Under the pieces are notes generated by a model. The model worked only from the letters and a program-made list of their open reading frames with translations, did no database searches and was not told the DNA's origin. Shown in pieces: positions 6,270 through 58,017 of a DNA stretch of 64,000 bases (within the stretch, counting starts at the first letter, position 1; every line of letters begins with the position of its first letter). A program made the position numbers and the translations under genes. The stretch comes from Psammoneis japonica (lineage: Eukaryota), in assembly GCA_008632985.1 (NCBI GenBank), contig QPGO01000047.1, positions 124,001 through 188,000 of the forward strand, written 5' to 3'.

Positions 6270-6930
6270 ATGGTGGGCTTCCGAAACGGCATCGGCTTGC
6301 ACATTCCTGATGCGAGCCTGAAATGTCGATTTCTCTTCCGATGGCGTTGAAGCAACAGAACCAATTTCCGAAGCGGCTTCCGTCTTATCTGAACACGTTC
6401 ACATGTGACTTGAGGGCCTGAATTTTTTCTCTTCCACTCATCCAGACAAACAGTCTCAACTGCATTCCATGAGAGTGGGCTTCTGAATCGGCATCGGCTT
6501 GCACGTTTCTGATGCGAGTTTCTCTTCCGCTGGTGTTGAAGCAACATAACCGGCTTCTCCAAAGTGGCTTCCATTTCATCTGAACACGTTCACATGTCAC
6601 TTGCGGGCCTGAATTCTGTCTCTTCCACCTGTTCAGACAAACAGTCTCAACTGCATTCCACGAGAGTGGGCTTCTGAACTGGCACCTGCTTGCACGTTTC
6701 TGATGCCAGCCTTGATTTCTCTTTTGCCAGTGTCAAACAACAAAACCAACTTCTGAAGCAACTCATTCCACCTCAGGCCTGAAATTGATCTCTTTCTCTT
6801 CCGTCCATCTTGAGAAACAGTCTTGACCACATTCCATGAGAGTGGGCTTCTGAAAAGCATCGGCTCAAATGTTCTCTTCCGCTGGTGTTGAAGCAACACA
6901 ACCAACACTTCCAAAGTGGCTTCCAACTCA
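6270..6930. repeat. Degenerate tandem repeat, about 180-200 bp unit, about 4 copies
   Basis: Motif gtgggcttc(c/t)gaa..ggca.c.gct recurs near 6273, 6475, 6666 and 6842. Confidence 0.8.
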
Positions 6931-7599
6931 TTGTCTCTTTGACCCATCTTGAAAAACAGTCTCTTGACTTCTTCCAAACAACTGGCACAAAACTGCAATG
7001 CTGTCAATGTGCAAGAAAGCAAAAGTGCAATGAGTGGATGAACAAATGCCACATGGAAAGAGAAAAAGCAACAACACCATCATTTCAACAACACACACTC
7101 ACCCTGCATTGCTTTGTTGCTGGCAAGTTGGCTGGCCAATTGCACCAAAAACACCCAAACAATGACAAATTGAGGATTGGCTCCTGTCATCATCACCAGA
7201 ACCACCAGCACATTAAGTCTTCTGAGTTGCTTTGTGCAAAAAAGACACTGTGTGAGATGATGCAAGCATGGGTGATGGACAAAATCATTTGGTCCAAAGG
7301 TGTGAGCTGTTTAGACTCTGCTCCACAGTGGAGCATGCACAAAACCTTTTTTTTTAACCCACCTTTGTTCACAGACCATTCCACCACCAAGAAGACAAAA
7401 TGTCACCATGTTGTGGACACAATGAGGAGAGTTAAATCTTCCAATGCCACAGATTGCCAGATGTTGCTGTGAATTGGCTGCGCCCAACACCAGAAGATTT
7501 GATTGTTTGTTGTCCAAATGATGTCAAGCCAAAGAGACAACACACTGGCCCCACCAACAATGATGATGCAATGCCAAACCAACATGAACAAGCACAAAC

Positions 7600-8090
7600 A
7601 GAAAGAAACAGAATGAGTGTGTGCATTTTTGTGTTTTTTTACACAGCAATTGCAATGACACACTCACACCTTTTTTGCAATGCTGCTGCTCTTTGTTCTT
7701 TCAGAATCCAAAGAGAAAATGACCCATTGCCATCCAGAAGAGCTGTGGTGTCCTTTGGGAGCAGTTGAAAAAAGCAAGAAAAGAAACAGAATGAGTGCGC
7801 ATTCACACATTTTGCACAGCAATTCCAACAACACACTTTCCCTTTTTCACCCCACCAATGATGCTGCTCTTTGTTCTTCCAAAGCTTCAAAGAGAAAAAA
7901 AAGCATCACCGTCTGCACAAGCTGTTGTGTCCTTTTGTGGCAAAGGCAGAAAAGAAACAGAATGAATGATCATTCATGTGTTTCACACATCAACTCTGAT
8001 GACATGCTCATGCCTTTTTTCCCAAGAACACTGCTGCTCTTCATTCTTCCAAAGTTTCAAAGAGAAACAAAGCCATCAACTTGGAGACCC
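7600..8090. repeat. Degenerate tandem repeat, about 175 bp unit, 3 copies
   Basis: aaagaaacagaatga...tgctgctct...caaagagaaa starts near 7602, 7780 and 7951. Confidence 0.8.
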
Positions 8091-9884
8091 CAAACTGCAA
8101 ATGATGCTGCAGCTGATGGAGTGAGCTGCAAGAACCTGCTGGAGCATCTCCATGTCTCCCATGAATGACGCCATTCCATGTCAAGTGAGTGACTTCTGTT
8201 TTCGAGTTGAGCTCATAAAACCATTCCATTTTCATCAGTCATCCAACTGCGCACTTTGTTGGATCAACAGAGACAGCATCATCAATCACCAATGCTGCAA
8301 CATCACAAGCAGAGATGATCTGCAAAACAATGTGGATGCCAGCAAGAGATGTGGACACAGAAACATGCAACAGCCTCAAAGTGACACTTGCCGAGTGAAT
8401 CATGTTCTCTCACAATTGCTCTGCACATGTTGCTTGCACCTTGTGCCACTTTTGGTTCATTGCCACTTTTGGCTTGCTCAAAAAAATGAATGAGTGATGC
8501 AGTGATGAGCAATGAGCAAGATTTGGATTGTCAGCTTTGCTTGGCGCCTGTGGTGCTGCACACGCAGAAACCATGACCCTGTGACAACAAAGGAGCAACA
8601 AGTGTCTTCATCACCACAGGTGGCGCAAATCCAATCAAAGTTCAGGTTGGGTTTCCTTGGTGAGAGGATCTCAAATCCAGCCCCAAATGGATTTGCACCA
8701 CCTTCGGTCTCATGAAGTTAAATGCGTGAACACCCATCTCCAAGAGTGTCACATTTGGTGCAACCAACTGGCCAACCCGCCCACTGAGCACAGTCTGTTG
8801 AGCTCATGGTCAAGAGAGAAGCACAAGCAATGCTTGCTTGTGCTTGACATGTTCAAGTCAACAGCCAAATTATGAGCGAACCGAAGGCAGCACTGATTTG
8901 AGCATCGGCAGATTGCCTCTCAGTGCCTGAAAGGTTTTTTGGGTGTGCAGTTGTGAAGAGCCTGCAAAGAATGGAAGGGAACAGCAGAAGGAGGCACAGC
9001 AGCAGCTGCAGTGATGGTGGAATAGAATGGAGTAAATGCAGTGGATGTGCGGTGTTTGGTTCAAGGGACAGGGAACGTAGGAGCAGGAAAAGTTGAGGCG
9101 AATCGAAGGGCATGCACAGAAAGATGGAGGAGGACTGCATTGCAGCTGAGAGCCTGAAGAGCCCATTGGGATGGAGAGGCAGTGTGGAAGGTGCTGCCAA
9201 AGTGGTCAGAGGACAGGCAACACCATGCAGAATCAGCCAATGGAAGGAGAGCAGACAGAGAGGACAAGGCGTGGAGAAAGGCGGAGTGGGAAGGGTCAGA
9301 GTGCCGAAAGTCAGAGGGAGAGGACCAAGGGGGCTTGGGTTGAGACCGGACGGATGTGAATGTAGAGCCAAAGAGGAGGCAATGAGCAAAGAAGCCAAGA
9401 CCACCGAGGTGATCAACGGTGAAAGGGAGAAGGAAGACGCCGTCATTGTTGAGCGAAGAAACAACAAGGGAGCCATCAGCAGAGGAGGGGAAGGGCCAAG
9501 AAACTTCCCGAACACAGATTTATGTTTATATTTAGTTTTTCAATTTTATTTATTCAATGCATTCATGATAACGGATTCTTGCTATCAGGAAATACAATTA
9601 GCAACGGAAACAAAAATGAATAGAGTAGTCAACACTGTAGGTTATTGTCTTCCGTTTGGAAATTTCGAATTCTGACAGCTGACATAGTGGTCGAGATTTT
9701 CAGCGTTACGGCGTGCATTATTTGGCCATGACCCATGACCATGTGCAGCGCACAGCTCAAGCAACAAGCAAACGGGGCTTTCGGCTTTTCGTGCACGGCA
9801 TACTGTTACTTTCTCTGAGTCATCCCCCCTGAGACGCGCCAGTACTGTATACAGTACGTACATACTTGACGGTCCATCACAAGA

Positions 9885-18581: not shown

Positions 18582-19344
18582 AGCGTGGCGTTTTGCAGGG
18601 ATCGATAAGTAACCCTTTCATAATTATTGAACTTTGGATCGTTTTCTCTTGATGCCGAGGTAACGTAGATCGAGATTGCCACCGGCATTGTTTTTCATTT
18701 GTCGCACATACTCAACAGAAGATGTTGCAACCGAAAGCCAAGGTGTGTATCACATAATATGCTCTTATTGCGTTGTGCTTGTAGACCGATACCGCTCAAT
18801 ATTCCAGTTGGTGTACTGTACCACTTCAGAACAACACTTCTGCGTTTGCCAAAAAGCCGGTGGATATCCCAAAGTATTCATGCTCACCCATGAGTGTCCA
18901 ACCATTATTCTTTTTATTTACAGAAGTACCCGCCCATGCCCTGAGATGTCTCCGGTGTCGCCCTTCCAGAGAGTCGGATCGGCTGACTATCGTTTTTTAA
19001 GGCCAGCGACATGATAATTCCACTGTCATGCTAGGATCCAACGAAAATACAAGCGACGCTCTACTCTTGAGGTAAATTTTGTCATCGTCAAGGAGCGAAT
19101 ATGGTAACTGTCGTAGTATCCTTTTAAAATTTGATAACAGGATATTACAGGGTGCGATCAAGAATTCTCATCATAATCAGGCCACGGGTACGGCTAGTCG
19201 TATCGATGTCAGCATACCTACCCCGAGAAACATGGTAAGAATGAACAACGGTCTCCTCTTGTCCCATTCTGTCCATACCGGTTACCGTATTCCAACAAGT
19301 TTTCTGAGCCTTCGTACCGGAATTGCTGTGATCTGAATGGCATC

Positions 19345-19760
19345 CGCTCTTGCAGCAAGGACCAATGACAGATATTAATCAGATGCTATCCTAACAGTTG
19401 CAAGTCTACCTACATTTACCTAAGAACTGCCACTGAGTATTCATAATACGATGGCCCTTATTCCTTGCTTTCTCCTCTCTTGACGACTTCTGGATTGTTC
19501 GTAAAGAACCACAAAATGAAGTTCCCAACCTGTCCTATTCTGTCCGCAACGGAAGTGCTGTGATCTCAATGGTACCAGCTCTAGCAGTAGTGATCAACAA
19601 TAGACAATAATCAGATAACTAACCTAAATCTTGTACATCTACCTACCTATATCTAAGAAAGGCCACCGGCTACTCATAATCCGTTGATCCTTATTTCTTG
19701 TTTTCTCCTTTCTTGACGAAGTCCGGATTGTTCGTCAAGAACCAAAAAATAAAGTTGTCA
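19345..19760. repeat. About 235-bp tandem duplication of the 3' end and 3' flank of the LRR gene
   Basis: 19458-19523 (minus) encodes NFILWFFTNNPEVVKRGESKE*, versus NFIFWFLTNNPDFVKKGENKK* at 19691-19756. Flanks also align. Confidence 0.75.
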
Positions 19761-20921
19761 TCGCTGCGCGGACCTGCCAAGACATGTGGCCAAAGAGCTG
19801 CAGACACGTTGTCGCGACGCAGCAAGTGTCTTCCTGCACTATTCATGTGAACGTAGCAATCCATTTCATCTTGCGTCTCCTCGTCAACCGTCGGCATCCA
19901 CACCTGGTCAGCAGAATACGCAGCTTCTCCAATGTCCTTGGGTGTGGTTGTAAGCGACAAGCAGCCGTCCAGCTGGAGATAACGAAGCCTCGGCAGCTGA
20001 AGAATTTCCTTTGGAATAGACGTCAAGTGTTCACACCCAACCAGACCCAAGACACTCAACTTTGTGAGCAATCCCATCTTTGGAGGAAGCTCGAATAATT
20101 CGGAGCAATTTATAAGCTTTAACCACGTCAGATTGACAAGATTGCAAACGACGACTTGCAAGAATTCATTCAAGCCGGGGCCGTAGTTTTCAAGCATAAG
20201 ACATTGAAGCTGTGACAGCTTCCCAACTTCAATCTCGGGAGTTTCGTGAGTTTCTTGCAATCCACAAGATAGAGTTCTTCAAGTTGCTGTAACTGTCCTA
20301 TTTCAGGGGACAACTTCGTGAGAGACCGGCCAACGTGTAACCGCAGCTCCACCAAGTTTGTCAACTGCCACAATTGATCTGGCAACTCTTTGAGACTTTC
20401 GCAGTGGCGAAGGTCAAGGAGACGCAGTTGCTGCAGCTGCCCGATTCCCTTTGGCAACTCTGCAAGACTTTTGCAATGGCAAAGGTGAAGTTCTCTCAGT
20501 TGCTGCAGTTTCCTGATTTCCATTGGCAACTCTTCCCGATTCCCGCAGGCAAACTTCTGAGAGCACTGCAATTGCACAAGTTCAGCTTCTTCAAGCTTGT
20601 CAATTCGCACACTTCATTGGGCAAGACAACGATGCTCCGGCACTCAGTTAATTGCAATTCTTCAAGTCGCTGCAGCTGCTCAATTTCTCGAGGGATCCGC
20701 ACAAGATTGATGGAACTCACGGCCAAGACTTCAAGTCGACACAACAAGCCAATTTCGCACGGAAGCACAACCAAACTGGGGACAGAGCACAAATGCATTT
20801 CTCTTGCATTGATGCACTTCTCGTGCTCCAGTGAAAAAGTGTGCAACAACCGCCACTTTGGCAGTCCCGCAGCTTGTTTCATGGCAGCGAGGATCAGGTC
20901 GGAAGGGTCGTCATCGTCCAT
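19691..20921 (-). pseudogene. Leucine-rich repeat protein, frameshifted, 5' half TpA-converted
   Basis: LRR units (LPxEIGxLxxLxxLxL..C) spread over three frames, with shifts near 20535 and 20240. Diatom-type C-terminus N.AGR.LL...LWP.VL. Confidence 0.85.
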
Positions 20922-21029
20922 TGTTGTTGCTCTTGTTCCCTTGCAACCGGGCTGTGAGAGCAACGCACTGGCTCAAAGTGAGCGTGTTGACAAAAAAAAC
21001 TGTTGGTGATTTCAAATGCCATTGACGAC

Positions 21030-21435
21030 CGTGCGCCGGGCCATGACTCGTTGTGTGTGTCAAGAAAGCATTGCGCGATGCTTTTCTTGTGTTTCTTTTT
21101 GAAAAACGAGCCAGCTTGCACTGCCAGCACTTGTGCTCAAAAGACAATGTTTCGTTGTGCGGTGCAAGTGAAACCGGGCGTGCTAACTCCCAAGGGGCTG
21201 TCGTCTCTCGTCTCCACGTGTGCATTTAGAGGGCCTGCCGCAGTTGTTCTCTGCGACCTGCGCCGGGCCATGTCTCGTTGTGTGTGCAAAGAAAGCGTTG
21301 CGCAGTGCTTTTCTTGTTTTTCTTTTGAAAAGAGATCTTGCCAACACCAGCACTTACGACTGTTCAAAAGCCAATGTTTCGTTGTGCCGCACAAGTAAAA
21401 CCGGACGTGCCAACTCCAAACGGACCATCGTCTCT
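21030..21435. repeat. Direct repeat, about 228 bp unit, 2 copies, upstream of the LRR pseudogene
   Basis: tgcgccgggccatg.ctcgttgtgtgtg...aagt.aaaccgg.cgtgc.aactcc starts near 21032 and 21259. Confidence 0.85.
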
Positions 21436-21742
21436 GTGTTGACAGGGCTGTGATGCAATGTCATAGAGCAAAAAATGAAAACGCACGAACCAAAGCGCCA
21501 TCAAAGAACGTGAAGTGGCTTATGTAGTTTCTGACCACGACATTTCACGTTAATGACCCTCGTCTGGCCGCCACCGAAAACATCAAAAACAATTCTGATT
21601 TTGTCATTTTCATTTGACGAAATCTACAGGAAACGCTGGTAGAATTTCTACGTAGAATTTATCTTATGTAGCGCGACGCAATAGCGCGATAGTCGCACGA
21701 AGTCATCACACGCGCAGTCATCGGCAGATCTTGATCGGCACC

Positions 21743-24278
21743 ATGGCGTCTTCTCTTTTGCGAACGAGCGTTCGACGTTGTGTGACGACGGGTCGTATCA
21801 CACCACGGCGTAATGATTTTATCAATAAGAGAGTGTTTTCAAGTAGTAGTGTGGCTGCTGCAGTGTCAACATCGTCTGAGCAACACTATGAGGATTCGTC
21901 TCGCGCGTCATTGCCGTGGATGGGAGCAGCAGCGGCGGCGGCACTGGCAACTGCATTGAATACTGACAACAACAACAAGGCAGAATGCTGCGGAATTGCA
22001 GGTGTTGTTGGGGGAGATAAGGACGATGCCAGGTAAGATACTTATGGCCGAACGAATTCGCCGGACGCTGTGTTCCCGGTGTACTTGATTAATTTGATCA
22101 TAGACGTGCAGAGGAAGCGCAGGGATTACCATAAGTGAGGCGTTGATCATACTTACATCATCAAACTTGCTCTTGTTCTATTTTAGACAATTTCTTTTGG
22201 AAGGACTGACTATTCTCAAGAATCGCGGCTACGATAGCGCCGGACTAGCTACGGTCCCGGTAGAGGGCGGAGCCATGGTATTGACAAAGTACGCCAGTGA
22301 CGGAGACAAGGCTGATAGCATTGAATTAGTAAAGTCCAAAAGCGAAGCTTCTTCGGGCCATCCTATTGGTATTGCTCATACGCGTTGGGCCACTCACGGA
22401 GGAAAAACAGATGAAAACGCGCATCCTCATACGGATTCTTCTGGCAAGATTGCTCTGGTCCATAACGGTACTCTGAACAACGCAAATGAGTTACGGAAAG
22501 AACTCCAAGACCTGGGCCACGTTTTTACGAGTCAAACGGATACCGAAGTCATTGTCAAACTCATTGGTCATATCCGAGATAAGGACCCCAGCAATATCTC
22601 TGTCAAGGATGCTACTCAGCTCGCCTTGGATCGCTGTGACGGTACGTGGGGCCTCTGCATCATGTGCTCTGACACACCCGACGAACTTGTGGTGGCGTGC
22701 AATGGATCACCCATGGTGTTGGGGATTGCCCACAATCGTACCTTTGTTGCGAGTGAAACGTCGGCCTTCAATCGGTACACCAAGAACTTTATCAGCATGA
22801 AGGATGGAGAGATTGGTGTTTTGCACGCTGACGGACGAACTTTGGATTTGACGCGCAAGCAGAAAGCGCCTGATCACAAAGTCGAATTGTCGCCAGATCC
22901 ATTTCCTCATTGGACGCTAAAGGAGTAAGTTGTAATGGTTGTATGTGTCGCTACTGTAAGTTAAAGGCAACGGGCTTACCCTTTTGGATCACCTTGTTCT
23001 CGCTCAGAATGACTGAGCAACCTGAAGCCATGGCTCGAGCCCTGGGATTTGGCGGTCGGTTGGCTCCTGACAAGGTCTTGTTGGGTGGACTGGATAGTAA
23101 CTTTGACCGCATGTCTAAGATCCGTCTCTTGACTCTGAGCGCCTGTGGAACGAGTCTCAACGCAGCCAAGTACGGGGAACGACTCATGAAGCATTTGGGA
23201 TCCGTTGACAGTATCGTGTCCATTGACGCTGCAGAAACTGGCCCTGATGATTTTCCTGTCTGCAAGGAAACGTCAGAAAGTGGTGTCATTGTTATTTCGC
23301 AAAGTGGGGAGACCAAGGATGTCCAACGTGTCGTGTTGACTGCCATGGACAAGGGTGTGACAGTGATGAGTGTGGTCAATGCCGTGGGTAGTCTCATTGC
23401 GCGCACCACAAAGCTGGGAGTTTACTGCAACGCCGGACGGGAAAATGCGGTTGCATCGACAAAAGCATTTACGACTCAAGTTACTGTACTAGCACTTATT
23501 GCATTGTGGTTTCGCGAAGCCCGTGACAAGCTCGAGGGCTTGGCGCCCTCTCAAGAAGCGGTTCGTCTCAAGGAGGCACTCATGCGGCTGCCCATTACTT
23601 TTGGAATGACCATGAAATCGCGTGACAAATGCCGTGAAATTGCCAAACGACTGGAAAACAAGGAACATTGTTTCTTATTGGGCAAGGGGTATGGCGAACC
23701 GGTGGCACAAGAAGGAGCGCTGAAAATCAAGGAAATGTGCTACCTTCACGCAGAGGGGTACAGCGGAGGCGCACTCAAGCACGGGCCCTTTGCCCTGATT
23801 GAGAACGATGAGACGGGAAAGAATGGTGCGACCCCAATCATTATGCTCGTTCTCGACGATGAGCATGCCCAGCACATGCGTACTTGTGCGGAGGAGGTAA
23901 GTTTTTGGCAAGAGAGTAACAATCATGGGATTGCCGGGCCTGCACTCATGATGCTGGCGTTTATTTATCGTGTAGGTCAAGGCTCGGGGTGCTGAGATTA
24001 TAATTATTACGGACAAGGCTAGCCTTGCACAGGGTTTGGACGACGATCCTATTCTCATTCCGTCCAACGGTCCAATGACTGCTCTTGGTGCCGTGCTACC
24101 GTTGCAACTGATTGCTTACGAACTTGCTATGCTACGGTGAGTTTAAGTTGTGCTGCCCTTTCATATTTTGAAGCAAATCGGCTCTTCCTCTCATCAAGCG
24201 TGTTTATGAATTTGTTAATGTAGTGGCATCAATCCGGATACTCCACGAAACTTGGCCAAAGCAGTTACTGTAGACTAG
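21743..24278 (+). CDS. glmS: Glutamine--fructose-6-phosphate transaminase (GFAT) with N-terminal presequence, 5 exons
   Basis: Motifs [53 protein letters not shown] and C-terminal [11 protein letters not shown]. Introns 22033-22186, 22925-23007, 23897-23975, 24137-24223. Confidence 0.95.
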
Positions 24279-24802
24279 GGGGGTTACTTGTGATGTTGAG
24301 TTTTGCTTCCATGTAGTCCGTAGTTGAGTAATTTAGAGTCTATTCCCATCTCTAGTGCTGCAAGGCGACGTAGCAAAGGATGTTTCTCTTGACTTATCTA
24401 CGGAGCATTGTTTGTACGGTGTGAACTAGATGAAAGCAGGGTGATCCGTAGCAGCTTCTGCGACAAGCGCAGGTAATCGGCCGCGGGGAATGTGTCGCTC
24501 CACCCTCCACCAAAGAGAAGCTCTATCCATTGTTTATTTAACTCACAGCCAGAGGATTCCTTCGTAGTGTGTTGTGTACTTAAGCCATCTCTCCTCCTCC
24601 AGCACACTATCATCCCGCCCACGCCTTCAGTCATTACAAAACAATCATCGTCTTTCGAATCTAGCTCTATAGAAGTAACAGTGGACTAGAAACAAGCAAA
24701 TGAAGAGGAAGTAATCATGTAGAAGTCGGACTATATAGTACTTGGCTGTTCATTCTAATACAAGTAGCTTGATTTTGGAATGCCTTGTAGCCACTCCTCA
24801 TC

Positions 24803-32232: not shown

Positions 32233-32954
32233 GGTGATGGTGGAGATCGTTTCGTGACAAGTGACAAGTGAAAGCGTTGACACTTTATTGTGGAAGCCTA
32301 CCATACACGCATACTGTACAACGAACCTTCGTACGTATCCTGATCGTGGCTTCAAGTTGAAGAACAATGAATGACGTAATCGACTGCAATGGTACTGTAC
32401 GACGTGTGCGTTCTGTAACTATTCTCTAATGAGAGCTTTTATAACTGCAAGAAACACCATTTTTGTCACAAATAATAAATGATAAAAAGGTCTAGTAACG
32501 GCAAATTGTGTCTTCTAACTTGTGTTGCGAAAACCGGTCAACAGGGAGACGTCATTGGTGGACATCATGGCATGATGGATGGAAGTCTTCTTTCGCCGCT
32601 TCCTTTTCGGCTCCTCACTTCCCACCGCTCGCTCTCAACCCGCGCCTCCCTGGCAGTCTCCCGCTGCTCTCCACAACTCTGATGCCTCCTGCTCTGCCTT
32701 TCTTCATGCCCCCTCCTCCCCTGCGCTGACTTCACCTGCTGCTGCGGAGCCCACCTTGGCACCACCGATCGCTTTGGCAGCACACATCGCTCTGCATGCC
32801 AAGCTGCAAGCAGCACCCAGTGCCACCTCTCTTCTTGTGCCACTTGGTTCCTTCCCCTGCCCTGTCCACACACCAAATGCCCTGCTGCTCGTCGCTGTGC
32901 CCCCCTCTGTCACCCCCCCGCAGCCACCACCGCCGCTCTGAGACAGCTGCCTTG

Positions 32955-33200
32955 ACACCATTTTGCACCCTTGGCAACATTGTGCCCTTGGCCACCTTGT
33001 GCTTTCTGTTGTTTTGAACCCACAGCCACCATTTTGCACCCTTCTTAATTTTGCGACCTTTCGCATTTTGCACATTTTGAGATTTTTTGCCCTCGGTTTG
33101 TGCCCTTGGCAGTTTTGCGCCCTTTGAAATTTTTGCCCTTGGCCATTTTGGGCTCTTTGTCATTTTGTGCCATGAGCCACAATTTTGCCCCCTCTGAGTT
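32955..33200. repeat. Cluster of short ttttgc(a)ccctt(ggc) motifs
   Basis: About 8 variants of tgcccttggc / ttttgcaccc in about 250 bp. Confidence 0.65.
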
Positions 33201-33840
33201 GGCATGCTGAGTTGCACCCCAAAGTTGGCATGCCAAGTTTTCCCCCAAAGTTCGAGTTTGCCAAGGTTCGACACACCTGTGGCAAGTCGCCCACGTGTTT
33301 GCCTCCCAAGCCAGCAAATTTTGGTGGTTAAATTTGGGTTTGTGTTTTGCTTCTTTGGAAAATGTCTCATTTTCATTGAGATGAGTCGGCTTGACAACTT
33401 GTGCCATTTTGTGGGGCTGAATGAGTTGTGAAGGTGTCTGCCCACATGTCAGTCATGTGTTGTGATTGAAATCATGGGGAGTCACTTTTGGGTGTTCTTT
33501 GGCGACCATGATTGTGTTTTAGAACTTTGACTCCAAGGCTTTCAACCAATCTGACCTCAAATCCATCACTGCAGACTCCTCAAGCAAACTGTGGAGTGAC
33601 AGGATTTGAACAAAATTTCAGTTCATCACACATGATCATGTGTGCTCGCAGCTCCGCACGCAGCACATGATGCACTTTGCTTTCAAGCCACTTGGCTCAC
33701 AAGAACGACAACAACAGCTCTGACATCATGACACCAGTCTTTTGACTCCTGTGGTGGTCTCTGCATGGAGACTCATCTGCTGTTTAGACAGCAGTGAGGA
33801 GTCATTGTTTTCTTCCACCCAATCATCTTCAATTTCTGTC

Positions 33841-33930
33841 ACTTGCCAAACTCGCCAAACTTGCCAAACTCACCAAACTTGCCAAACTCATCAAACTTGA
33901 CAAACTTGGATGCCTTGCCAAACTCGAAAA
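33841..33930. repeat. 9-bp minisatellite (AAACTYRCC), about 8 copies
   Basis: acttgccaaactcgccaaacttgccaaactcaccaaacttgccaaactcatcaaacttgacaaactt. Confidence 0.9.
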
Positions 33931-33999
33931 ACTCACACCGCTGCAACAACAATCCTGGGCCAAAGCAGAAAAGTCAAGGGGGGGTCATCCCCACATTCA

Positions 34000-35230
34000 T
34001 CCCAAAATGGTGTTTGTTTCCGAATGCAAAAAATTGTTTGCATTCACACCAGATCATGCAAAAAATGAGAACCACCAGGCACTGCAGTCAAAGCATGACA
34101 ATGATGCAATCATCAATCTTTCTTGAAAACACAGCGGGGCAACCACAAACTTTTGATCCACGTGTGATCTTTGACACAAAAAAGGAGCACAGCTGGAAGA
34201 TTTGGTGTGTCAGATGTGACGCTGATGATGCCCCCAGTGTCAGAAGGTTTCTCCAGCTCGTTGACCTCTGCTTCACAATGGGCACCCTTTTCAGCTTCAC
34301 TGTCATCATGAGAGCCCCTCTTCGTCATCCAAAACTTTCTTCTGTGCCTCTTCTGGCTGGGTCTCCCACACCACAAAGCCATCAACAGAAGCTTTTTGCT
34401 TCAGAGATGCTGGGGTTTCTTCTTCTGTCTTGTTCATTGTTGCTGGCTTCATCCTTTGCTGCATCTTCAGCACCACCTGTTGCTGCTTCTGGCTCTTTTG
34501 CAGGCACTTGGTTTTCTTTGTGATTTTGCAACGGATTTTTGGTGCTGTGTTCTGGGGTTGGGGGGAAGCTGTTGTTTGGAGCATCATCCTGTTCTGCATC
34601 TTCAACACTGCCTTTCACTGCTTCTGGCTCTTTTGCAGGCACTTGGTTTTTTTGTGATTTTGCAGTGGAACTTCCGGGAATCATTGTTTGGAGCATCATC
34701 CTGCGCTGCATCTTTGACACCACCTTTTGCTGCTTCTCTGGCTCTTTTGCAGGCACTTGGTTTTCTTTGTGATTTTGCAATGGATCTTTTGGAATCTTGG
34801 CACTGTCTTCTGGGTTTGGGTGGGAGTTGTTGTCTTGGGCATGTTCAGAGTTAAAATGTGCAGCACTGACTGTGCCATGTGGGTCCATTGCTGGGTCCAT
34901 TGTGGCTGACTCTTCTTTGTCTGTGACGTGTTCAGATTGGATGTGAGAAGTGCAGACTGTGCAATTTGGGACCATCGCTTGCTCCATTTTGCCCGACTCA
35001 CCTGACCAAATGGCACTGCTTTCCATTTTGTCCTCCTGGGCAGGTTCTTCAATTTGTGGACCTTCCTGCTGGTGCCCAGCCAACAACTGATTTTTGTCAT
35101 TGTGCTCAGCGTCTGCTCTGTCTTGAGACTCACCCTTGCACTGGCACTTCTCAAACCCACCTTTGTTGACCTCTCTGCACTCACATGGCTTGTGATTGAG
35201 GAAACTTCCAGCAGATGAGTGTTGCCTCAA
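34000..35230 (-). pseudogene. Relic low-complexity acidic protein with 3 internal KENQVPAKEPE repeats
   Basis: ORF 34382-35230 repeats K(E)NQVPAKEPE. DNA motif ctggctcttttgcaggcacttggtttt occurs near 34489, 34624 and 34738. No Tyr. Confidence 0.55.
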
Positions 35231-36666
35231 TCATTCTTGCACACTCTTCCACTGATTTTTCATCCTTGTGGCATTCGTGGAAGTGGTTGCAGTCGCTGCA
35301 ACTTTTGTCATCATCAAACACACAAATTGGCGCCTGCCCCCCCCCCCCACACAATGCAGATCAACCAGAAATGCAGATCAACCAGATTGGATGGTGCTGG
35401 AAACTTGTTTTTGGCAGGGCCAGCATCTGAACTCTCAAGCTTGTCACTGGTGCTGTCATGCCTTGGAACCTGTCAGGCTGGACCCTCTCCTCTCTAACAC
35501 CATGCCTCTCATTTCCATGGCACTTGTTTTCCAGATGCTTTGTTTCTCAGAAAGAGCATCAAGGCTGCAGTGCAGAGGTGCACAACAGGGGGCAGACTTT
35601 GTGACCCTGTGTTTGGGGCAGCTCCCAATTTGCCTGCATCTTGCCGTGTCATTTTGGAGCAGGTGGAGATTGTGTCAGCCGGCCCCTGCACCAAATTCCT
35701 GATTTTTGTTCCTGTGTGTTTTGTCATCCAGCCCACAAGTGGCTGAAGCTGGCAACTCAAGCAGAGGTGCCAAGTTTGCCCCCTCTTGCTTGCGTGCATT
35801 TGTTTCATCCTAAACATGCACCAGGCAGGTGCCCCAACCTCCATGCTGTGGAGCCAAGCTGGTGCTGCGTGGTTGTTCGTGCCTCCCAACAGACAACTGG
35901 CTGGCACCCTTTGGTTTTTCTGCAACTCAGCTTTGACTGTTGAGAGGAGTGCTGCTGCCCCTGCTGTTTTTGCTTCCTTCTGTGTGTCCTCCAGCTGCTG
36001 CCTGGCCAAGTTTTTTGACATCCCTGTGGCACAACCTGCAGACTGAAGCACCGCCCACCCCGACTCGGAGAGTGCTGCATTTTGCGCGCACTTTTGAGTT
36101 TGTGAGAGGGCATCAGCCAATGCAAGCATGTCTCAGCCTGTGTTTGAGTTTGTGCTGGCACACCTTGTGCTGCATTTTCCTTCCAAAATTTCAGCATGTT
36201 TTGGCGTTTGAACAAACGCCGCCTGTGTGTGATGGTCAACACGGTGCACCACAATGCTGCTGGCACACTGCTGAAAAAGTTGCTCTGGTTGTTCTTGCTG
36301 GACCCTTGCAAGTGCAGCACGATGCCAGGCACAAAATAATGACAGATGCTGCGTGACACGAAAACAAAGAGAAGCCAGCTTTGCACAAAAAAGTCACACA
36401 CAACAAAATTGATGTGTGTCGTGAAAGCATGATGTGGCAACAAGTGATCTAAATATCCGGGTTTCTTCCCGATAGATTTATGAGAACCCCATTCGGCATG
36501 GCTGATGTGTGAGTTCGCGCGAAGAAAAGTTTAGCATACTTTCTCACAAAGTCCGTTTATTATCATGCTCATTATGAATATCTTTATAAAACGGGTTCGG
36601 ATTCACATTTTGAGAGCTCTGTCAGCAAAAATCCACATCAAAAGTGGGAGACAATGAACTTCACCC

Positions 36667-53254: not shown

Positions 53255-53791
53255 TTGTGGGGTGCGTCAAACAGGTCTCACGGAAAGCAAGCCCTTAGCC
53301 ACAATTCTGACAGGAAGTGGAGTGCATGTCCAGAAAAAGACATTGAAGCCTGCAATGGCGATAAGGCTGATTGCATGGCCACTGCAGATGACGCATCAAG
53401 CCAATTCAAGTGCATGATTCAGCCCACCAACTCAAGTCATTGTCGCTGCATCCAAGAAGAACGAAGCTGGACCGAAAAGATTCACATCTGTGAATGCGAG
53501 GCAAATGAGTGGCATCAGCTTGGTCATGACCTCAACAGAGAAGTTCAACCTCACCCATTCATTGAATTGTCTTGTTCCATTTTGAGTGACAGAACTCACG
53601 TGACCTTTGCCGCTGGGAACAATGGCGCACACGTCTCAAAGCTTGGGGCTGGTTGTGCATTGCCATGGGCCAATGACTGTGCAGCTCTTACAAAAAATGT
53701 GCAAGCTTGCATTTTCTGTTGCGTGTGGGTCACAGAAGCCATCACATCTGTCATGGAATTACCCACCCCAAGAGAGCTTCAGCTCATTTGA
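53255..53791 (+). pseudogene. Tyr-free relic ORF, beta-propeller/FG-GAP-like after back-conversion
   Basis: IHICECEANEWHQLGHDL reads IYIYEYEANEWYQLGYDL if TG/CA are reverted to TA. Confidence 0.45.
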
Positions 53792-54174
53792 TGCTGCTGG
53801 TTTCGCTTTTTTTTCATGTCATTTCACTCAAAACCAGATCCCTTGATCTTGTTCAATTTGCACATCTGTGAAAGAACAAGGTGGAAGAAAACAGTTCAGA
53901 TGTTGCATGTTGCACTTTGAGGATGCAGTCAATTGTTAAGGCAAGTGTGGGCATGTGTGAAGAGCAAGAGTGGGTCACTGCACAGCAGGCTGCCCACTTG
54001 AGGCATGTCAAGTTTTGTGCGACCGAGGTGTCATTTTTGCCAGTGGTGTGAAATGAAACCTCAGCAAACTCTCATTGCAGCTGTTGAAAGGATGGATGGT
54101 CAGCACATTGTTCGACAAACCTGAACCCAGCTTGCTTTGAGCATTGCTGCTCACGAAGTGTCGCGTCCATTTTC

Positions 54175-55243
54175 ATGATGACATGTGCACATTGGTGTGC
54201 ACTGCTGCCAATGGTTGCAAAGGTCATGTTTGATGCGATGGCGCAAGGTGTGTCAATTGCTGCAAAAGCAAGTCAAGACATGCTTTGCGCTGCTTTGGCT
54301 GCACCACGATTTTTGCGCCGATCGAAAGCCACGATGACTCCTTTGTCCACCTCCAGAACATCCTGCGCAACACCATGCCTGCAAGCATGCCTTTTGACCA
54401 CAAGGACTGTGACTCCACCCTTCTTCACAACGCCATTCAAAACTGCACACCTGCAGAGGACATGCCAGTTGATGCTCTGTCTGCCAGTCCTCCTTTGACT
54501 TGTCCATCGAGCATGAAATCGATTTGTCCGACCATTTTCAAAACATCCTTCGAGAGCATGCGCCCGCCGCAATGATTGCCATCCTGACGTTTTCCGACAC
54601 TTGCGAGATTTTGTCAAATTTCACTGGTGAGACCATGTCAAAGCTGCGCACTGCATTCCACGAGTTCTCTTTGAAGACCAAGACTGTTCGTGAAACCGCT
54701 TCGACCTTGCACGAGATCATCCATGACTCCTTGAAGACCTTCATCACGAAGGCACGAATTCAGGCTCACGTTTGGAAAGAATGTATGACGATGTCGTTTC
54801 AGACACCAATGTTGTCATTAGAATGTTGGTGGACAACAATTCAAGAAGCAACTGACAGCTCTGTCACACTTGTTCAAACTCAGGCCCGCACTCTGTGTGA
54901 CAAATGCGAGACGATGCCGTTTTGGACACCAAAATTGTTTTGCATCCAGAACATTGGTGGACGAGAGTTCAAAACTCGTGAAGGAGCTTTTAATCTGGGT
55001 GCGAGTGCGGGTGAGCAAGATGTCAAGAGTTGGGGACGTTCCTTGTGCCCCGATCCGAATCATGCGGTGAATTGGGCCAGTTGTTTGACGTGTGCGGCAA
55101 GAGGGGCATGGTGTGTTGTAGAGCGGGATCAGCTGTTGTGCAGTTTACATTCGGAACCTTGGCGCAAGACGATTCTGTTGAGAGTTTTCTGTTCATTGCA
55201 TTGGATGGTGGGATCTAGCTGTGCCATTGCAGAGCGCACATGA
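54175..55243 (+). pseudogene. Tyr-free relic gene, frameshifted, unknown product
   Basis: Overlapping ORFs 54285-54575 and 54500-55243 read as protein-like text with C/H at Tyr-like positions. Confidence 0.5.
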
Positions 55244-55520
55244 CAAGAGCAAGTGTCCAAATAGTCTCCCTGCTTTCATTTCGTCCGCTTCGTCAAAAAT
55301 GCCAAAGGAAATGCTGCCTCCATCGCTTGAAGAGCCTCTCCAACCGGTGGAAGCGAGATTTAAGTGCAGCTGTGCCAGTGCAGAGCACATGCAACAAGAA
55401 CAAGTGTCCAAATAGTCTCCCTGCTTTCATTTTGTCCGCTTCGTCAAAAAAGCCAAAGGAAATGCTGCCTCCATCGCTCAAAGAGCCTCTCCAACCGGTG
55501 GAAGCGAGATTTAAGTGCAG
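55220..55520. repeat. Near-identical 150-bp tandem duplication
   Basis: caagtgtccaaatagtctccctgctttcattt...gcgagatttaagtgcagc occurs twice, 150 bp apart. Confidence 0.92.
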
Positions 55521-56447
55521 CCAATGAAACGCAGCTTCACCGGCATTGCGAATCACCGCATCAGGTTTTTCCTTTGGAACGCTCGGCACGCGACCAATTG
55601 TTTTGAGAGAATTGGCAATCTGGTGCTGCTCGCAGACACTTTCCAAGCAGTGGTGCATTTCGGAAACAGCATCGTCAAACAAGATCACTGGCAAGGAGGT
55701 GCAAGCATCCTCCAGTGGTGTGGATCGTGCGCCCGCACACACAATGTGAATTCGAAACTCCGTGCAAGGCCTTTGAACCATCAATCTTGAAGGCACCAAA
55801 ACTTTAAGGTCTGACAATGTTGTGGAAGAAGGGGAAGTGAGAAGTGAAAATCGAGAACGGATGGTCACGGTGCGAGCTTGCGATGAATGAATTTGTTGTT
55901 CCTCACCTTGCTGTCAACAACAAGCTGCGGCAGACGGGATTCATTCAAGGCGGGCAGCATTGGAGAAAGCTTCACGCCTTTCTATGCGGCGATCACTGAC
56001 ACTGCCATTTCTAGCGTCGGCTCTTGTCCTTCCAACACAGCTGCCCCGACTCGGTGCTTGACTTGCTTGTCATCAAAGGTTCCCTCAAAGTTTGACAACG
56101 TGCGCGAAATTTCGGAGACTGTCAACCGTGTGCCATTTCTCCTCGTCGTCGCAGGAGAGAAGACTCAACTTCTTGGTGCTGTCGCACTTGGCTGCCGTTG
56201 CAGGAAACCATGACTGCAGCACATGGATTGAGACCTGTGCTTGTCGTCATCAACTGGCCCGATTGCTTCCATGTTACTGCCGGCCGACAACGAGAAGGAC
56301 TCTTCAACTTCATCCGAAAAGTCAGTCAAACGAGTCTTTTGAAGCACAAAAGGGAATGAGAGACAATTGGAGTGTGCCCTTTCTGCCCCATTCCTGGCTT
56401 GTGCCTCGTGCCGCACCCCGTCTGTTGTCACGAGATTGTCTCGAGAT

Positions 56448-56537
56448 CGTGTCCCGCGCATCACCGTCCCACGTCCCGCGTCTCACCGTCCCACGTCCCA
56501 CGTCCCGCATCCCGGCGCGTCCCGTGTCCCACGTCCA
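56448..56537. repeat. GTCCCRC short-motif array
   Basis: About 8 copies of (c)gtcccac / gtcccgc upstream of ORF 56689. Confidence 0.8.
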
Positions 56538-56688
56538 AAAGAAATTTGTAAATTCCAAAAGCCTGGGTCGTGCCAGCGTGTGTGCTTGTCTGTGTCACCA
56601 AAATGCAAGCACGACATTGCACGGCACAGCAACGGACGACAAAAACCGACAAAACCTGTTCGCAGCTTTGACCTGCTGCTGAATCACC

Positions 56689-58017
56689 ATGTCGTCATCT
56701 GCCACTGATCCCTCGAACACTCCTGAGCGTCTCGTCAAGAAAGGTGTCCAAAAGAAAATGAAGCCATCCGGTCCTCTGTTTTCCGCTGACATGCTTTCTC
56801 CGGTCGGCAAGAAACGAAAGACTTTGCAGTCTCAGGCGTCGGCAAAGAAACGCCGTCCTGATGGAGCTGTTGCTGCTGCCCAAATGCCCCAATTCGAAGC
56901 TCGTCTTGATGAAATCGAAGAAAAGAATGGATGCCAAAAGGAAATCACGACGATCGTCAAGTCCTGTGACAAGATGCTCGGCCCGGTCGATCGAGCCTGC
57001 AAGCATCTCAAATCAAAACTCGAAAAGGCAGCCAATCACCATGATTCTGTGAAACAAGCTAGAGATGAGGCGAATCGAAAGTTTGATGAAATCGGACGTG
57101 ACATGGATGAAGTCGATGCGAAGATCAAGTCTCCATTGAGTGAAGTCGAAAACCTGCGCGCTCAGAAGAAAGAAATGACCAGCATGCGCGAAGCTGTCAC
57201 GTCGGTGGCTTTGAACCTTGCCACCACAGTCAAGGCCGAGAACGCCGTGTCTTCTCCATCCACACAACTTGAGGAAGCGAAGAAGAACAAAGAGCTTCTT
57301 GAGAAGGAACTTGAACCCTGTCAGCATCTTCTCAGACAACATCGTGTCATTTGGAGGGATTGGTCTGGTGAGCAAATGTTTGAAAACTTGGAAATGGAGT
57401 TTTCACGCAATTTTCTAGAAAATCTGGACAAGGAGAGGCTTCTGATCATCAAGAAGGCTGTGAAGATTTTTGGCTTCCCGCCAGCAAGACACTTCAATGT
57501 GAGGAACAAACCAAAAACGGGTGTGATCGACGACATTTGCACTGCAGCAGACATGCCTCTCCCAGAGTTGGCATTTGATCCTGAAGCCATCCAGAAGGCA
57601 GTGCGAGAAGGACGCGCCAACTGGGATGCATTCAAGCAAAAGGTTGCGATGGCGGATGCAGCGCACGCTGCGAAGGACTGCGAGCACATGGATGGCATTT
57701 CTGATGAAGAAGAGCATGGTGAAGAGGATGCTCAGACAACAGGGGGCAACATTTCGAAAACATCTGGAAGACGAAAGAGCATTTGGAAAACCAATGGATC
57801 AAACCACTCTGGAGCAACACTTGTCTTAATCTTGCTCTGTCAAACATCGGCACAGCAGGAGCAGGGCCCTGCGTCTGGACAGGTGGCACCTGCACGACAA
57901 GGACGTGCTTCCTGCAATCCCGGGAGCGCTGCAGCCGACGCAGCTGTTCGAGAAAAATGCGTCAACGGCAAACCGGGTGCAGCAAGCAAGATGTTGTGCG
58001 ATTCCTTGCTGGCTTGA
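56689..58017 (+). pseudogene. 442-aa coiled-coil, NLS-bearing ORF with no tyrosine; hypermutated gene
   Basis: KKRK and KKRR motifs, heptad region, no Tyr, and GCQ, KSCD, RACKHL, KDCEHMD, EEHGE at Tyr-like positions. Confidence 0.6.

What the first reader, a model, noticed from the sequence alone, without database searches (positions are those of the whole stretch)
19691..20921. LRR gene half-converted: apparent spreading from an upstream repeat into a host gene
Seen: the 3' part (19691-20340) has normal TA and Tyr (LEELYL, LRYLQL, CYV). The 5' part has one TA (a TTAA) and reads LRELHLCHC, LPNEVCEL, LNLCNC, EMHLCSV where LRR units commonly carry Tyr. The gene is also frameshifted. Inference: the mutagenic domain nucleated at the 228-bp repeat or promoter and extended about 600 bp into the CDS, like RIP leakage.
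Basis: partly seen in the sequence, partly recalled or inferred. Interest (0 to 1): 0.8.

Follow-up and report, generated by a model that had tools for sequence, protein, structure and literature searches.

The report
TA-stripped tract across diatom LRR gene
In a diatom genome, an 845-base stretch covering the front half of a broken leucine-rich-repeat gene has lost nearly every T-A step, the mark of a targeted mutation process so far reported only in an unrelated alga.

Summary
Window 20339-21183 holds 1 TA in 845 bp, a TTAA. The 3' part of the same minus-strand LRR gene holds 16 TA in 645 bp (Poisson P about 5e-9). The 5' half has 0 Tyr in 193 codons, excess Cys+His, and no T|A codon junctions. 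The gene is read in three frames, so it has two frameshifts.

The tract is one of four TA-free tracts in the window. Inside them TA o/e is 0.05 against 0.57 outside, CA/TG are enriched and CpG is depleted. K-mer contigs from a DNA run reproduce the tract at single-copy depth. Duplicated segments inside the tracts differ by CA-versus-TG doublets, which points to mutation, not selection.

The signature matches the TpA->TpG/CpA hypermutation described in a 2026 preprint for Bigelowiella natans. The GFAT gene next door places this window in a diatom.

New details: TTAA sites are spared (14 of 41 residual TAs; p=8e-11), and tract edges are sharp.

The sharp edge lies in the gene and the graded edge lies in the repeat. 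A TA-rich tandem repeat just 3' of the gene is untouched. A recombinant origin cannot be excluded.

The parts
20339..21183 (.). Saturated TA-free core tract (845 bp): the 5' 583 bp of the LRR CDS, 104 bp of upstream spacer and most of copy 1 of the 227-bp repeat
   Evidence: 1 TA in 845 bp. CA o/e 1.63, TG 1.47, CG 0.74. Covered by X1 contig record 7 at depth 61.7.
20648..20651 (.). The only TA left in the tract, inside a TTAA
   Evidence: TTAA accounts for 14 of 41 residual TAs in the four tracts against 65 of 1997 outside.
21184..21520 (.). Partly depleted shoulder, covering the rest of copy 1 and copy 2 of the 227-bp repeat
   Evidence: 5 TA in 337 bp, then normal density from about 21520.
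19691..20921 (-). LRR gene of about 13 units of 24 aa, read in three frames; probably a pseudogene
   Evidence: ORFs 20972..20499, 20613..20173 and 20278..19691. Pfam LRR_14, LRR_4 and LRR_8 hits. Unit register.
20520..20545 (-). Frameshift 1, inside the tract: frame A reads ..SLPAGIG and frame B reads REELPMEIRKLQQ. It looks like the loss of about half an LRR unit
20236..20238 (-). Frameshift 2, outside the tract: the ..KKLTKLP frame and the EIEVGKLSQ frame share one base, so one base is missing
21026..21435 (.).
   Evidence: The copies differ by TG/CA doublets and by TA/TG and TA/CA differences. Depth is at the single-copy baseline.
19318..19756 (.). 233-bp tandem repeat, 1.9 copies, TA-rich and multi-copy. 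It overlaps the last 22 codons of the LRR gene and is not stripped of TA
   Evidence: 14 TA in 19600-19699. X1 depth is 217.6 against about 62.
6548..9362 (.). TA-free tract 1: 11 TA in 2815 bp, CpG o/e 0.24, multi-copy by depth
   Evidence: depth 166-513.
32517..36336 (.). TA-free tract 3: 7 TA in 3820 bp, CpG o/e 0.29
53363..58661 (.). TA-free tract 4: 22 TA in 5299 bp, CpG o/e 0.76
21744..24300 (+). Neighbouring GFAT (glutamine-fructose-6-phosphate aminotransferase) gene with GT..AG introns and normal TA. It shows the lineage is a diatom
   Evidence: Pfam GATase_6 and SIS hits. Best relatives are diatoms at 72-79% identity. Spliced contigs in X2.

Best explanation
A regionally targeted, TpA-specific T:A->C:G transition process has run to saturation over 20339-21183 and partly over 21184-21520. 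Each TA became TG or CA, depending on which strand was hit. The tract takes in the 5' half of an already or subsequently decayed LRR gene, its upstream spacer and a local tandem repeat. The 3' half of the same gene lay outside the target and kept its TAs and tyrosines.

Shown: the composition, its mutational nature, its regional extent, the sparing of TTAA and the involvement of both strands.

Inferred: the chemistry. The simplest version is enzymatic deamination of the adenine that follows T on either strand of duplex DNA (A->I, copied as G), as proposed for Bigelowiella natans. Oxidation of the thymine to a G-pairing base would give the same footprint.

Also inferred: that the conversion happened in place, that the target is defined by something with sharp limits (a homology or insertion boundary, or a guided chromatin mark) rather than by diffusion from a repeat, and that the process is recurrent, which keeps new TAs from reappearing.
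For: (a) Depletion hits every class of TA. The 5' half has Tyr codons 0 of 193, NTA codons 1, T|A junctions 0 of 39 T-ending codons, and a TTG+CTG share of Leu of 29/43 against 17/39 in the 3' half and 248/517 in the background. The 262 non-coding bases 20922-21183 also lack TA.

(b) It is one of four tracts with the same signature: TA o/e 0.05 against 0.57, CA 1.57 and TG 1.67 against 1.20.

(c) Aligned internal duplicates inside the tracts show 27 CA-versus-TG doublets in 1386 columns. Duplicates outside show 1 in 207 and 0 in 864. The two 227-bp copies show such doublets plus TA/TG and TA/CA differences. The copies were therefore converted independently after duplication.

(d) CA and TG are intermixed with no strand runs (z from -1.7 to +1.8 in the four tracts). 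This indicates many hits on both strands of duplex DNA.

(e) Context rule: TTAA density is 1.10/kb inside against 1.27/kb outside, while GTAC, ATAC, CTAC and ATAT fall from 119-177 occurrences to 0. Fisher p=8e-11. The tract's only TA is a TTAA.

(f) DNA-run contigs confirm the sequence at single-copy depth across the boundary in one piece.

(g) The same de novo spectrum, exclusively TpA->TpG/CpA in delimited regions plus 124 TpA-depleted clusters, was measured in B. natans mutation-accumulation lines (preprint 10.64898/2026.01.13.699255; Results and Discussion read).
Against: - No unmutated paralogue, allele or orthologue was found, so the ancestral state of each site is inferred, not observed.
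- CA/TG doublets can also arise from ancestral CpG, and CpG is depleted in the tracts too.
- The residue-level test is weak: Fisher 0.11 for Y against C/H between the two halves.
- The tract is 0.85-1.2 kb, much shorter than the other three (2.8-5.3 kb).
- Unlike the Bigelowiella targets, nothing viral or transposon-like was recognisable in any tract.
- An abrupt edge in the middle of a gene fits a crossover between a stripped and an unstripped copy as well as it fits conversion in place.
- GC-rich, codon-biased diatom transcripts can show TA gaps of up to 508 bp. A gap alone is therefore not unique, although those sequences are 51-60% GC against 48% here.
Confidence: 0.6

Rival explanations
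1. Chimeric gene. The 5' half with its upstream DNA was stripped of TA elsewhere, as part of a targeted element or paralogue. It was then joined in LRR register to an unstripped paralogue by unequal crossover or gene conversion near 20338.
For: The edge at 20338 is abrupt, with TAs at -39, -48 and -68 bp and then none for 311 bp. LRR arrays with 72-bp units 78-79% alike invite in-register recombination. Extra depth over 19822-21123 (106 and 85 against 62) and a second contig matching in pieces show related sequences elsewhere in the genome. The gene is broken anyway.
Against: All seven other tract edges in the window except 21184 are equally abrupt and lie in non-genic DNA, so sharp edges are a property of the process and need no crossover. 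One DNA contig spans the junction at single-copy depth. No donor copy was found.
Confidence: 0.25
2. The process nucleates on the 228-bp tandem repeat or the promoter and leaks about 600 bp into the adjoining single-copy gene, like RIP leakage beyond a duplication.
For: The tract is continuous from the repeat into the CDS. Every TA-free tract in the window contains internal tandem repeats of 110-230 bp. That RIP leaks some hundreds of bp into flanks in Neurospora is recalled, not checked here.
Against: The gradient runs the wrong way: saturation in the CDS and copy 1, partial depletion in copy 2, and an abrupt stop inside the gene. The 227-bp repeat is at single-copy depth. The multi-copy 233-bp tandem repeat at the other end of the same gene is TA-rich. 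The 88%-alike 860-bp duplicates at 2-862 and 3561-4424 are also not stripped.
Confidence: 0.12
3. Selection or codon bias. The 5' half avoids UA for mRNA stability or translation, or the protein simply lacks Tyr.
For: TA is under-represented in all coding DNA here (3.5 per 100 bp, o/e about 0.57). GC-rich diatom GFAT transcripts show TA gaps of up to 508 bp.
Against: The depletion continues through 262 non-coding bases and the repeat. It stops in the middle of the ORF. Three other tracts have no recognisable coding content. The gene is frameshifted, so selection on it is unlikely.
Confidence: 0.03
4. Sequencing or assembly artefact from modified bases in TpA, such as a modified T or A that is miscalled.
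For: The gene has frameshifts. Modified thymines at TpA are known in some protists (recalled, not checked here).
Against: K-mer contigs of DNA run X1 give the same letters, with 9 differences in 4133, at the same depth as the flanks. No half-depth TG-only and CA-only versions appear, as strand-specific miscalls would produce. X1 may not be independent of the assembly.
Confidence: 0.03
5. RNA-level A-to-I hyper-editing (ADAR-like, on double-stranded RNA) followed by reverse transcription and integration.
For: A preference for U before the edited A is known for ADARs and for fungal ADAT-derived mRNA editing (preprint Discussion; abstract of PMC11156358 seen in the listing).
Against: There are no strand-coordinated runs of TG or CA. 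AA is not depleted (o/e 1.31 inside). The tract is contiguous with the unedited half of the same gene and with promoter DNA. No retroelement features were found.
Confidence: 0.02

Closest known systems
TpA-targeted regional hypermutation in Bigelowiella natans (Mettrop et al., bioRxiv 10.64898/2026.01.13.699255; Results and Discussion read)
   Same: The change is exclusively TpA->TpG/CpA, seen here as a footprint. Regions are delimited and lie among normal DNA. TpA depletion comes with CpA+TpG enrichment. Most affected sequence is unannotatable. Both strands are affected.
   Different: The lineage differs: a diatom (stramenopile) rather than a chlorarachniophyte (rhizarian). Here the tracts are saturated (o/e 0.02-0.07), whereas the active NCLDV region there has Rho 0.45. 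No viral or transposon domain is recognisable here. A host-type LRR gene is cut through. TTAA is spared and CpG is co-depleted; searches of the preprint's main text for 'TTAA', 'context' and 'tetranucleotide' gave 0 occurrences, and its supplements are closed. No de novo mutations were observed here.
Repeat-induced point mutation (RIP) of ascomycete fungi
   Same: It is a regional, dinucleotide-specific, both-strand transition hypermutation that inactivates genes and can affect adjoining sequence. It serves as a genome defence.
   Different: RIP is C->T at CpA and creates TpA, so the footprint here is the reverse. Duplication is neither sufficient nor evidently needed here, since untouched repeats sit next door. 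RIP operates premeiotically in fungi through DNMT-like proteins, and nothing is known here.
Deaminase-based restriction (APOBEC3 C->U on DNA; ADAR A->I on dsRNA; ADAT2/3- or TadA-type adenine deaminases)
   Same: These are context-dependent deaminations used against foreign nucleic acid. ADAT/TadA enzymes naturally act on an A preceded by U (tRNA U33-A34; recalled). This fits a TA target.
   Different: The substrate here appears to be chromosomal duplex DNA over kilobases, with sharp limits and both strands hit equally. No enzyme has been identified, and no genome was available to search for one.
CpG decay of methylated DNA
   Same: It also feeds CA/TG and also marks silenced repeats. It co-occurs in tracts 1 and 3 (CpG o/e 0.24-0.29).
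   Different: It cannot remove TA. The LRR tract has only mild CpG loss (0.74).

Membership tests
TpA->TpG/CpA regional hypermutation (Bigelowiella type) | [quoted passage not shown] | tested here: met
   TA o/e 0.05 inside against 0.57 outside; CA 1.57 and TG 1.67 against 1.20. The LRR tract has 1 TA in 845 bp.
TpA->TpG/CpA regional hypermutation (Bigelowiella type) | The changes are T:A->C:G transitions at TpA, on either strand | tested here: inconclusive
   This is indirect only. There are 27 CA/TG doublets between duplicates inside the tracts against 1 outside, TA/TG and TA/CA differences between the two repeat copies, and CA and TG intermixed. No ancestral sequence or de novo mutation was available, and CpG decay can also give doublets.
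TpA->TpG/CpA regional hypermutation (Bigelowiella type) | Targets are integrated viral, transposon or other foreign sequences | tested here: not met
   No viral or TE domain was found in any tract (Pfam on ORFs and on six-frame read-through; viral contigs; Atlas). The only recognisable content is a cellular-type LRR gene. Degradation could hide the origin, and tract 1 is multi-copy by depth.
TpA->TpG/CpA regional hypermutation (Bigelowiella type) | Elevated, episodic de novo mutation rate in the region | not testable with these tools
   This needs mutation-accumulation lines or population resequencing.
RIP (fungal repeat-induced point mutation) | C->T at CpA, giving TpA enrichment and CpA/TpG depletion | tested here: not met
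   The footprint is the opposite.
RIP (fungal repeat-induced point mutation) | Triggered by duplicated DNA of several hundred bp | tested here: not met
   The 233-bp multi-copy tandem repeat (19318-19756) and the 860-bp 88% duplicates (2-862 and 3561-4424) are not stripped.
Leucine-rich repeat proteins (24-residue, Cys-containing LxxLxLxxCxxLxxLPxxIG type) | Tandem LRR units matching LRR profiles | tested here: met
   Pfam LRR_14 gives E=7e-15 for the middle frame, 6.5e-9 for the 5' frame and 2.7e-6 for the 3' frame. 28888 library proteins match at E<=0.001, all through repeat units.
Leucine-rich repeat proteins (24-residue, Cys-containing LxxLxLxxCxxLxxLPxxIG type) | An intact open reading frame | tested here: not met
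   Two frameshifts. One gap in the X1 contig over 19774-23905 could sit at one of them; its place was not shown.

The most novel reading that the evidence does not exclude
Diatoms carry an active, guided DNA-editing defence that erases TpA on both strands of duplex DNA, except in TTAA, within sharply bounded targets. It is mechanistically the same system as in the rhizarian Bigelowiella, and so old or widespread across the SAR supergroup. Its targeting can cut straight through a cellular gene. That makes this LRR locus a natural ruler for the targeting boundary and for the enzyme's sequence rule.
Probability: 0.35. Interest if true: 0.85.

Novelty: new member of a known kind. Interest (0 to 1): 0.7.

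Why it matters
A TpA-specific, regionally confined hypermutation has so far been reported only once, in a 2026 preprint on a chlorarachniophyte. Finding its saturated footprint in a diatom, a different supergroup branch and a major ocean primary producer, suggests a widespread 'reverse RIP' genome defence among protists, not a curiosity of one species.

This locus is especially informative because one gene supplies both the treated and the untreated sample. It shows that the process is regional and not gene-wise, that it removes tyrosine codons and TAA/TAG stops, and that it has an abrupt limit.

The sparing of TTAA gives a concrete, testable substrate rule for the unknown enzyme. It also gives a simple genome-scan criterion for finding more cases.

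For annotation, such tracts yield long spurious ORFs, because only TGA stops remain, and Tyr-free pseudo-proteins.

Tried and rejected
- Whole genome: none is held, so there was no genome-wide scan, paralogue search or deaminase search.
- Earlier findings of this scan: nothing by place, words or sequence.
- Close paralogues or orthologues of the LRR gene: none found.
  - 3' part, longer proteins: 6 hits at <=39% identity, of which the three sequences read look bacterial (multi-domain proteins with a signal-peptide-like N-terminus; my reading of the sequences) and one is a named plant protein.
  - Middle frame, near lengths: 1 hit at 45% identity over half the query.
  - 5' frame against 1.84 billion representatives: the 150 listed are at 30-43% identity through repeat units only, and none matches the N-terminus.
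  - Metagenome contigs: 65 pattern matches, 0 relatives.
- Synteny route through GFAT: 80 loci, best 83% identity, mostly transcript-length contigs, none from the same species. They were used only as a control for TA gaps.
- Identity of the other three tracts: no credible Pfam hit on 27 ORFs of the three tracts or on 18 six-frame read-throughs with X at stops. No viral-contig relative of the 444-aa ORF. No Atlas hit.
- Strand rule ('A followed by A is not a substrate'), tested on tri- and tetranucleotide gains: inconclusive. Gains do not balance losses class by class, probably because the tracts' ancestral composition is unknown and CpG decay interferes.
- Strand-coordinated runs of CA or TG: none found.
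- Expression: no RNA holder is listed. X2 behaves like a transcript assembly, with depth 1.4-8 over the gene, but contigs cannot rank or exclude expression. This was not used as evidence.
- The X1/X2 contig that joins 20086>20344, 20394>20907 and 20929>21025 has non-canonical ends and short sides (23-51 letters). It was read as a related sequence elsewhere, not as splicing. Its sequence could not be seen.
- Literature: searches for TpA/TpG/CpA with diatom gave 0 papers. Searches for 'TA dinucleotide' with diatom, for diatom with hypermutation/TE/deaminase, for genome defence with adenine deamination, and for TpA with hypermutation and alga returned papers, but no listed title or abstract start reported this footprint in diatoms. 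These covered open PMC and bioRxiv only.
Full report
WHAT IS THERE

The window is eukaryotic, about 48% GC, with GT..AG introns. Just upstream of the finding, on the + strand from 21744, lies a GFAT (glutamine-fructose-6-phosphate aminotransferase) gene with Pfam GATase and SIS domains. Its best relatives are all diatoms, among them Asterionellopsis, Helicotheca, Fistulifera, Nitzschia and Cylindrotheca, at 72-79% identity with none closer. The organism is therefore a diatom without a close relative in the protein collection. No whole genome is held for it.

The finding's gene lies on the minus strand and is read in three frames: 20921..20499, 20613..20173 and 20278..19691. All three pieces match LRR profiles. 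Together they make about 13 units of the 24-residue LxxLxLxxCxxLxxLPxxIGxL type.
- Frameshift 1, at about 20520-20545, looks like the loss of half a unit.
- Frameshift 2, at about 20236-20238, is a missing base.
- The last 22 codons run into a 233-bp tandem repeat at 19318-19756.
The gene is best called a decayed LRR gene.

TA dinucleotides occur 16 times in the 645 bp of the 3' part (19694-20338). They occur once in the next 845 bp (20339-21183), and that one sits in a TTAA at 20648-20651. At the 3' part's own rate, the chance of one or fewer is about 5e-9.

Codon counts:

| | 5' half (193 codons) | 3' half (215 codons) | 11 other ORFs of the window |
|---|---|---|---|
| Tyr | 0 (P=0.004) | 5 | 2.8% |
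| Cys+His | 17, 8.8% (P=0.011) | 12, 5.6% | 4.7% |
| T\|A codon junctions | 0 (39 T-ending codons) | 6 | 251 (1588 T-ending codons) |
| TTG+CTG among Leu | 29 of 43 | 17 of 39 | 248 of 517 |

The 5' half has a single NTA codon. The 262 non-coding bases upstream of the start codon also lack TA. Tyr codons, synonymous sites, codon junctions and non-coding DNA are all stripped together. This is what a context-dependent mutation does, and it is not what selection on a protein or an mRNA does.

IT IS NOT AN ARTEFACT

Contigs of a DNA run (X1, baseline k-mer depth about 62) reproduce the region. One 4133-letter contig lies on 19774-23905, across the boundary, with 9 other letters and 1 gap. Its depth (61.7) equals that of the single-copy flanks. 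Strand-specific miscalling of a modified base would have given two half-depth versions. X1 may be the sample the assembly came from, so this confirms the letters but is not an independent strain.

IT IS ONE OF FOUR SUCH TRACTS

The window has 2039 TAs. Gaps of more than 285 bp between them occur only in four places: about 6548-9362, 20339-21183, 32517-36336 and 53363-58661.

| Dinucleotide o/e | Inside the tracts | Outside |
|---|---|---|
| TA | 0.05 | 0.57 |
| CA | 1.57 | 1.20 |
| TG | 1.67 | 1.20 |
| CpG | 0.51 | 0.96 |

CpG o/e is 0.24 and 0.29 in tracts 1 and 3, and 0.74 in the LRR tract. The other three tracts gave no credible family match, either on their ORFs or on six-frame read-through. 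They also gave no hit in viral contigs or the Atlas. Tract 1 is multi-copy by depth, at 166-513.

THE LOSS IS MUTATIONAL AND HITS BOTH STRANDS

Duplicated segments inside the tracts differ from each other by CA-versus-TG doublets: 6, 11, 5, 1, 1 and 3, which is 27 in 1386 aligned columns. Duplicates outside the tracts show 1 in 207 and 0 in 864. A doublet is what two copies show when the same ancestral TA was converted on opposite strands. Ancestral CpG can do the same, so this supports the reading without proving it.

The two copies of the 227-bp repeat upstream of the gene show such doublets, and also sites where one copy has TA and the other has TG or CA. The duplication therefore came first.

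CA and TG are intermixed with no strand-coordinated runs (z from -1.7 to +1.8; controls from -2.7 to +0.4). This argues for many separate hits on duplex DNA. It argues against a single single-strand event and against a retro-copied, edited RNA.

A SUBSTRATE RULE: TTAA IS SPARED

Of the 41 TAs left inside the four tracts, 14 are in TTAA. Outside, 65 of 1997 are (odds ratio 15, p=8e-11). TTAA density is 1.10 per kb inside and 1.27 per kb outside, so it is essentially not depleted. GTAC, ATAC, CTAC and ATAT drop from 119-177 occurrences to none. By trinucleotide, the inside/outside ratio is TAA/TTA 0.21, TAG/CTA 0.10, and TAC/GTA and TAT/ATA 0.03.

A simple reading is that an A followed by A is a poor substrate, so only the palindrome TTAA is protected on both strands. 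My attempt to confirm this from the products (TGA/TCA against the other classes) was inconclusive.

COMPARISON WITH WHAT IS KNOWN

A 2026 preprint (10.64898/2026.01.13.699255; I read the Results and Discussion) reports the following for Bigelowiella natans:
- In mutation-accumulation lines, two integrated viral regions mutate about 1000-fold faster than the rest of the genome.
- The changes are almost exclusively TpA->TpG/CpA.
- The authors propose an adenine deaminase (an ADAT2 homologue) acting as a RIP-like defence.

The footprint here is the same. The lineage is not: this is a stramenopile, not a rhizarian. My seven literature searches returned no listed title or abstract start reporting this footprint in diatoms (open PMC and bioRxiv only).

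RIP itself is the mirror image, since it turns CpA into TpA, and its defining features are not met here. I therefore file this as a new member of the Bigelowiella kind. One defining feature, a foreign-DNA target, was not met or is hidden by decay.

The idea that the domain nucleated at the 228-bp repeat and leaked into the gene is not borne out in detail.
- The saturated core is the CDS 5' half plus repeat copy 1. The abrupt edge is inside the gene: TAs at 39, 48 and 68 bp on the 3' side of 20338, then none for 311 bp. The only graded edge of the eight in the window is the one in repeat copy 2 (5 TAs in 21184-21520).
- The 227-bp repeat is at single-copy depth. The 233-bp tandem repeat at the gene's other end is multi-copy (depth 218), equally long, equally diverged (78%) and TA-rich.
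- The 860-bp duplicates at the window's start are also untouched.

Repeats as such are therefore not the trigger. Sharp edges speak for a target defined by sequence, such as a homology or insertion limit, or by a guided mark, and not by spreading.

The sharp edge inside the gene fits a second reading equally well. Extra depth over the CDS and a second contig that matches it in pieces show that related sequences exist. I could not retrieve any of them, so this stays open at about one chance in four.

RESIDUE-LEVEL CLAIM

I used 1113 LRR units from 150 distant homologues. In them, Tyr is commonest at unit positions 11, 6, 8, 13 and 10 (8.1-2.2%).
- At those positions the 5' half has 0 Tyr and 7 Cys/His in 32 cells. 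Expected values are 1.5 and 2.0 (P=0.005).
- The 3' half has 2 Tyr and 2 Cys/His in 28 cells. Expected values are 1.3 and 1.75.
- The direct contrast between the halves is not significant (Fisher 0.11).

His and Cys are also native at these positions in intact proteins. The Cys in NEVCEL is at position 23, where 7.5% of homologue units have Cys and 0.4% have Tyr. LRELHLCHC and LDLRHC are thus plausible Y->H/C products, but NEVCEL is not evidence. The DNA-level result carries the case.

MECHANISM, WITH SHOWN AND INFERRED STEPS MARKED

Shown:
- Regional, saturating loss of TA with a gain of CA and TG.
- Both strands affected.
- TTAA exempt.
- Independent conversion of duplicated copies.
- Sharp limits.
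- CpG decay in some of the tracts.

Inferred:
- The chemistry. Deamination of the A in TpA to hypoxanthine, read as G, fits the U-A preference of ADAT/TadA-type enzymes (recalled) and of fungal ADAT-derived editing (abstract seen in the listing). Oxidation of the T to a G-pairing derivative is an alternative I cannot separate.
- That the process is recurrent. The tract has about 160 CA/TG sites, any of which becomes TA by one common transition, yet none has done so, even though the repeat copies have diverged by 19% including transversions.
- That it acts as a silencing or defence system.

VERDICT

The phenomenon is known from one recent preprint in another supergroup. Its presence in a diatom, the TTAA exemption and a gene that carries its own untreated control are new and worth following up.

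Noticed in passing
window 6548-9362, 32517-36336, 53363-58661: Three further TA-free tracts of 2.8-5.3 kb (11, 7 and 22 TAs). They have CA/TG excess and CpG o/e of 0.24, 0.29 and 0.76. Each contains internal tandem repeats of 110-200 bp. None has a recognisable protein family. Tract 1 is multi-copy by read depth.
   Followed up: partly
all four tracts; e.g. 20648-20651, 7213-7216, 33045-33048, 57826-57829: TTAA is exempt from the TA loss: 14 of 41 residual TAs, and a density of 1.10/kb inside against 1.27/kb outside. Contexts with one 'TAA' strand (TTAC, TTAG, CTAA, GTAA) make up most of the remaining residual TAs.
   Followed up: yes
window about 58700-60600: The stretch next to tract 4 has intermediate TA density (o/e about 0.22-0.35 in 600-bp windows). 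It may be a partly converted shoulder like 21184-21520.
   Followed up: no
window 56683-58014 (+): A 444-codon open frame inside tract 4 is Lys/Glu-rich and coiled-coil-like, with no Tyr and only weak sub-threshold Pfam hits. With TAA and TAG erased, only TGA can stop a frame, so long ORFs in these tracts may be spurious.
   Followed up: partly
window 19318-19756: A 233-bp tandem repeat (1.9 copies, 78% alike) is very TA-rich (14 TA in 19600-19699) and about 3.5x single-copy depth in run X1. It forms the last 22 codons and the stop codon of the LRR gene.
   Followed up: partly
window 2-862 and 3561-4424: A direct duplication of about 860 bp at 88% identity with normal TA content. Its differences include 11 TA against CA/TG sites and 15 CG against CA/TG sites, but no CA/TG doublets.
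   Followed up: partly
window 22030-24223 (run X2): Run X2, labelled 'DNA?', behaves like a transcript assembly. Its contigs skip four GT..AG introns of the GFAT gene (22031-22184, 22925-23007, 23895-23973 and 24136-24222, each to within a few bases), which confirms the gene model.
   Followed up: no
window 14078-14790 and 15460-15770: X1 and X2 contigs show dense clustered differences, short skips and insertions relative to the window here. This suggests a diverged second allele or a paralogue of that region.
   Followed up: no
L052 661-1169, L039 5559-6357, L049 386-671 and 1178-1433: GC-rich (56-60%) diatom-like GFAT contigs from metagenomes have TA-free runs of up to 508 bp inside coding sequence. 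This is a caution that codon bias alone can give moderate TA gaps.
   Followed up: partly
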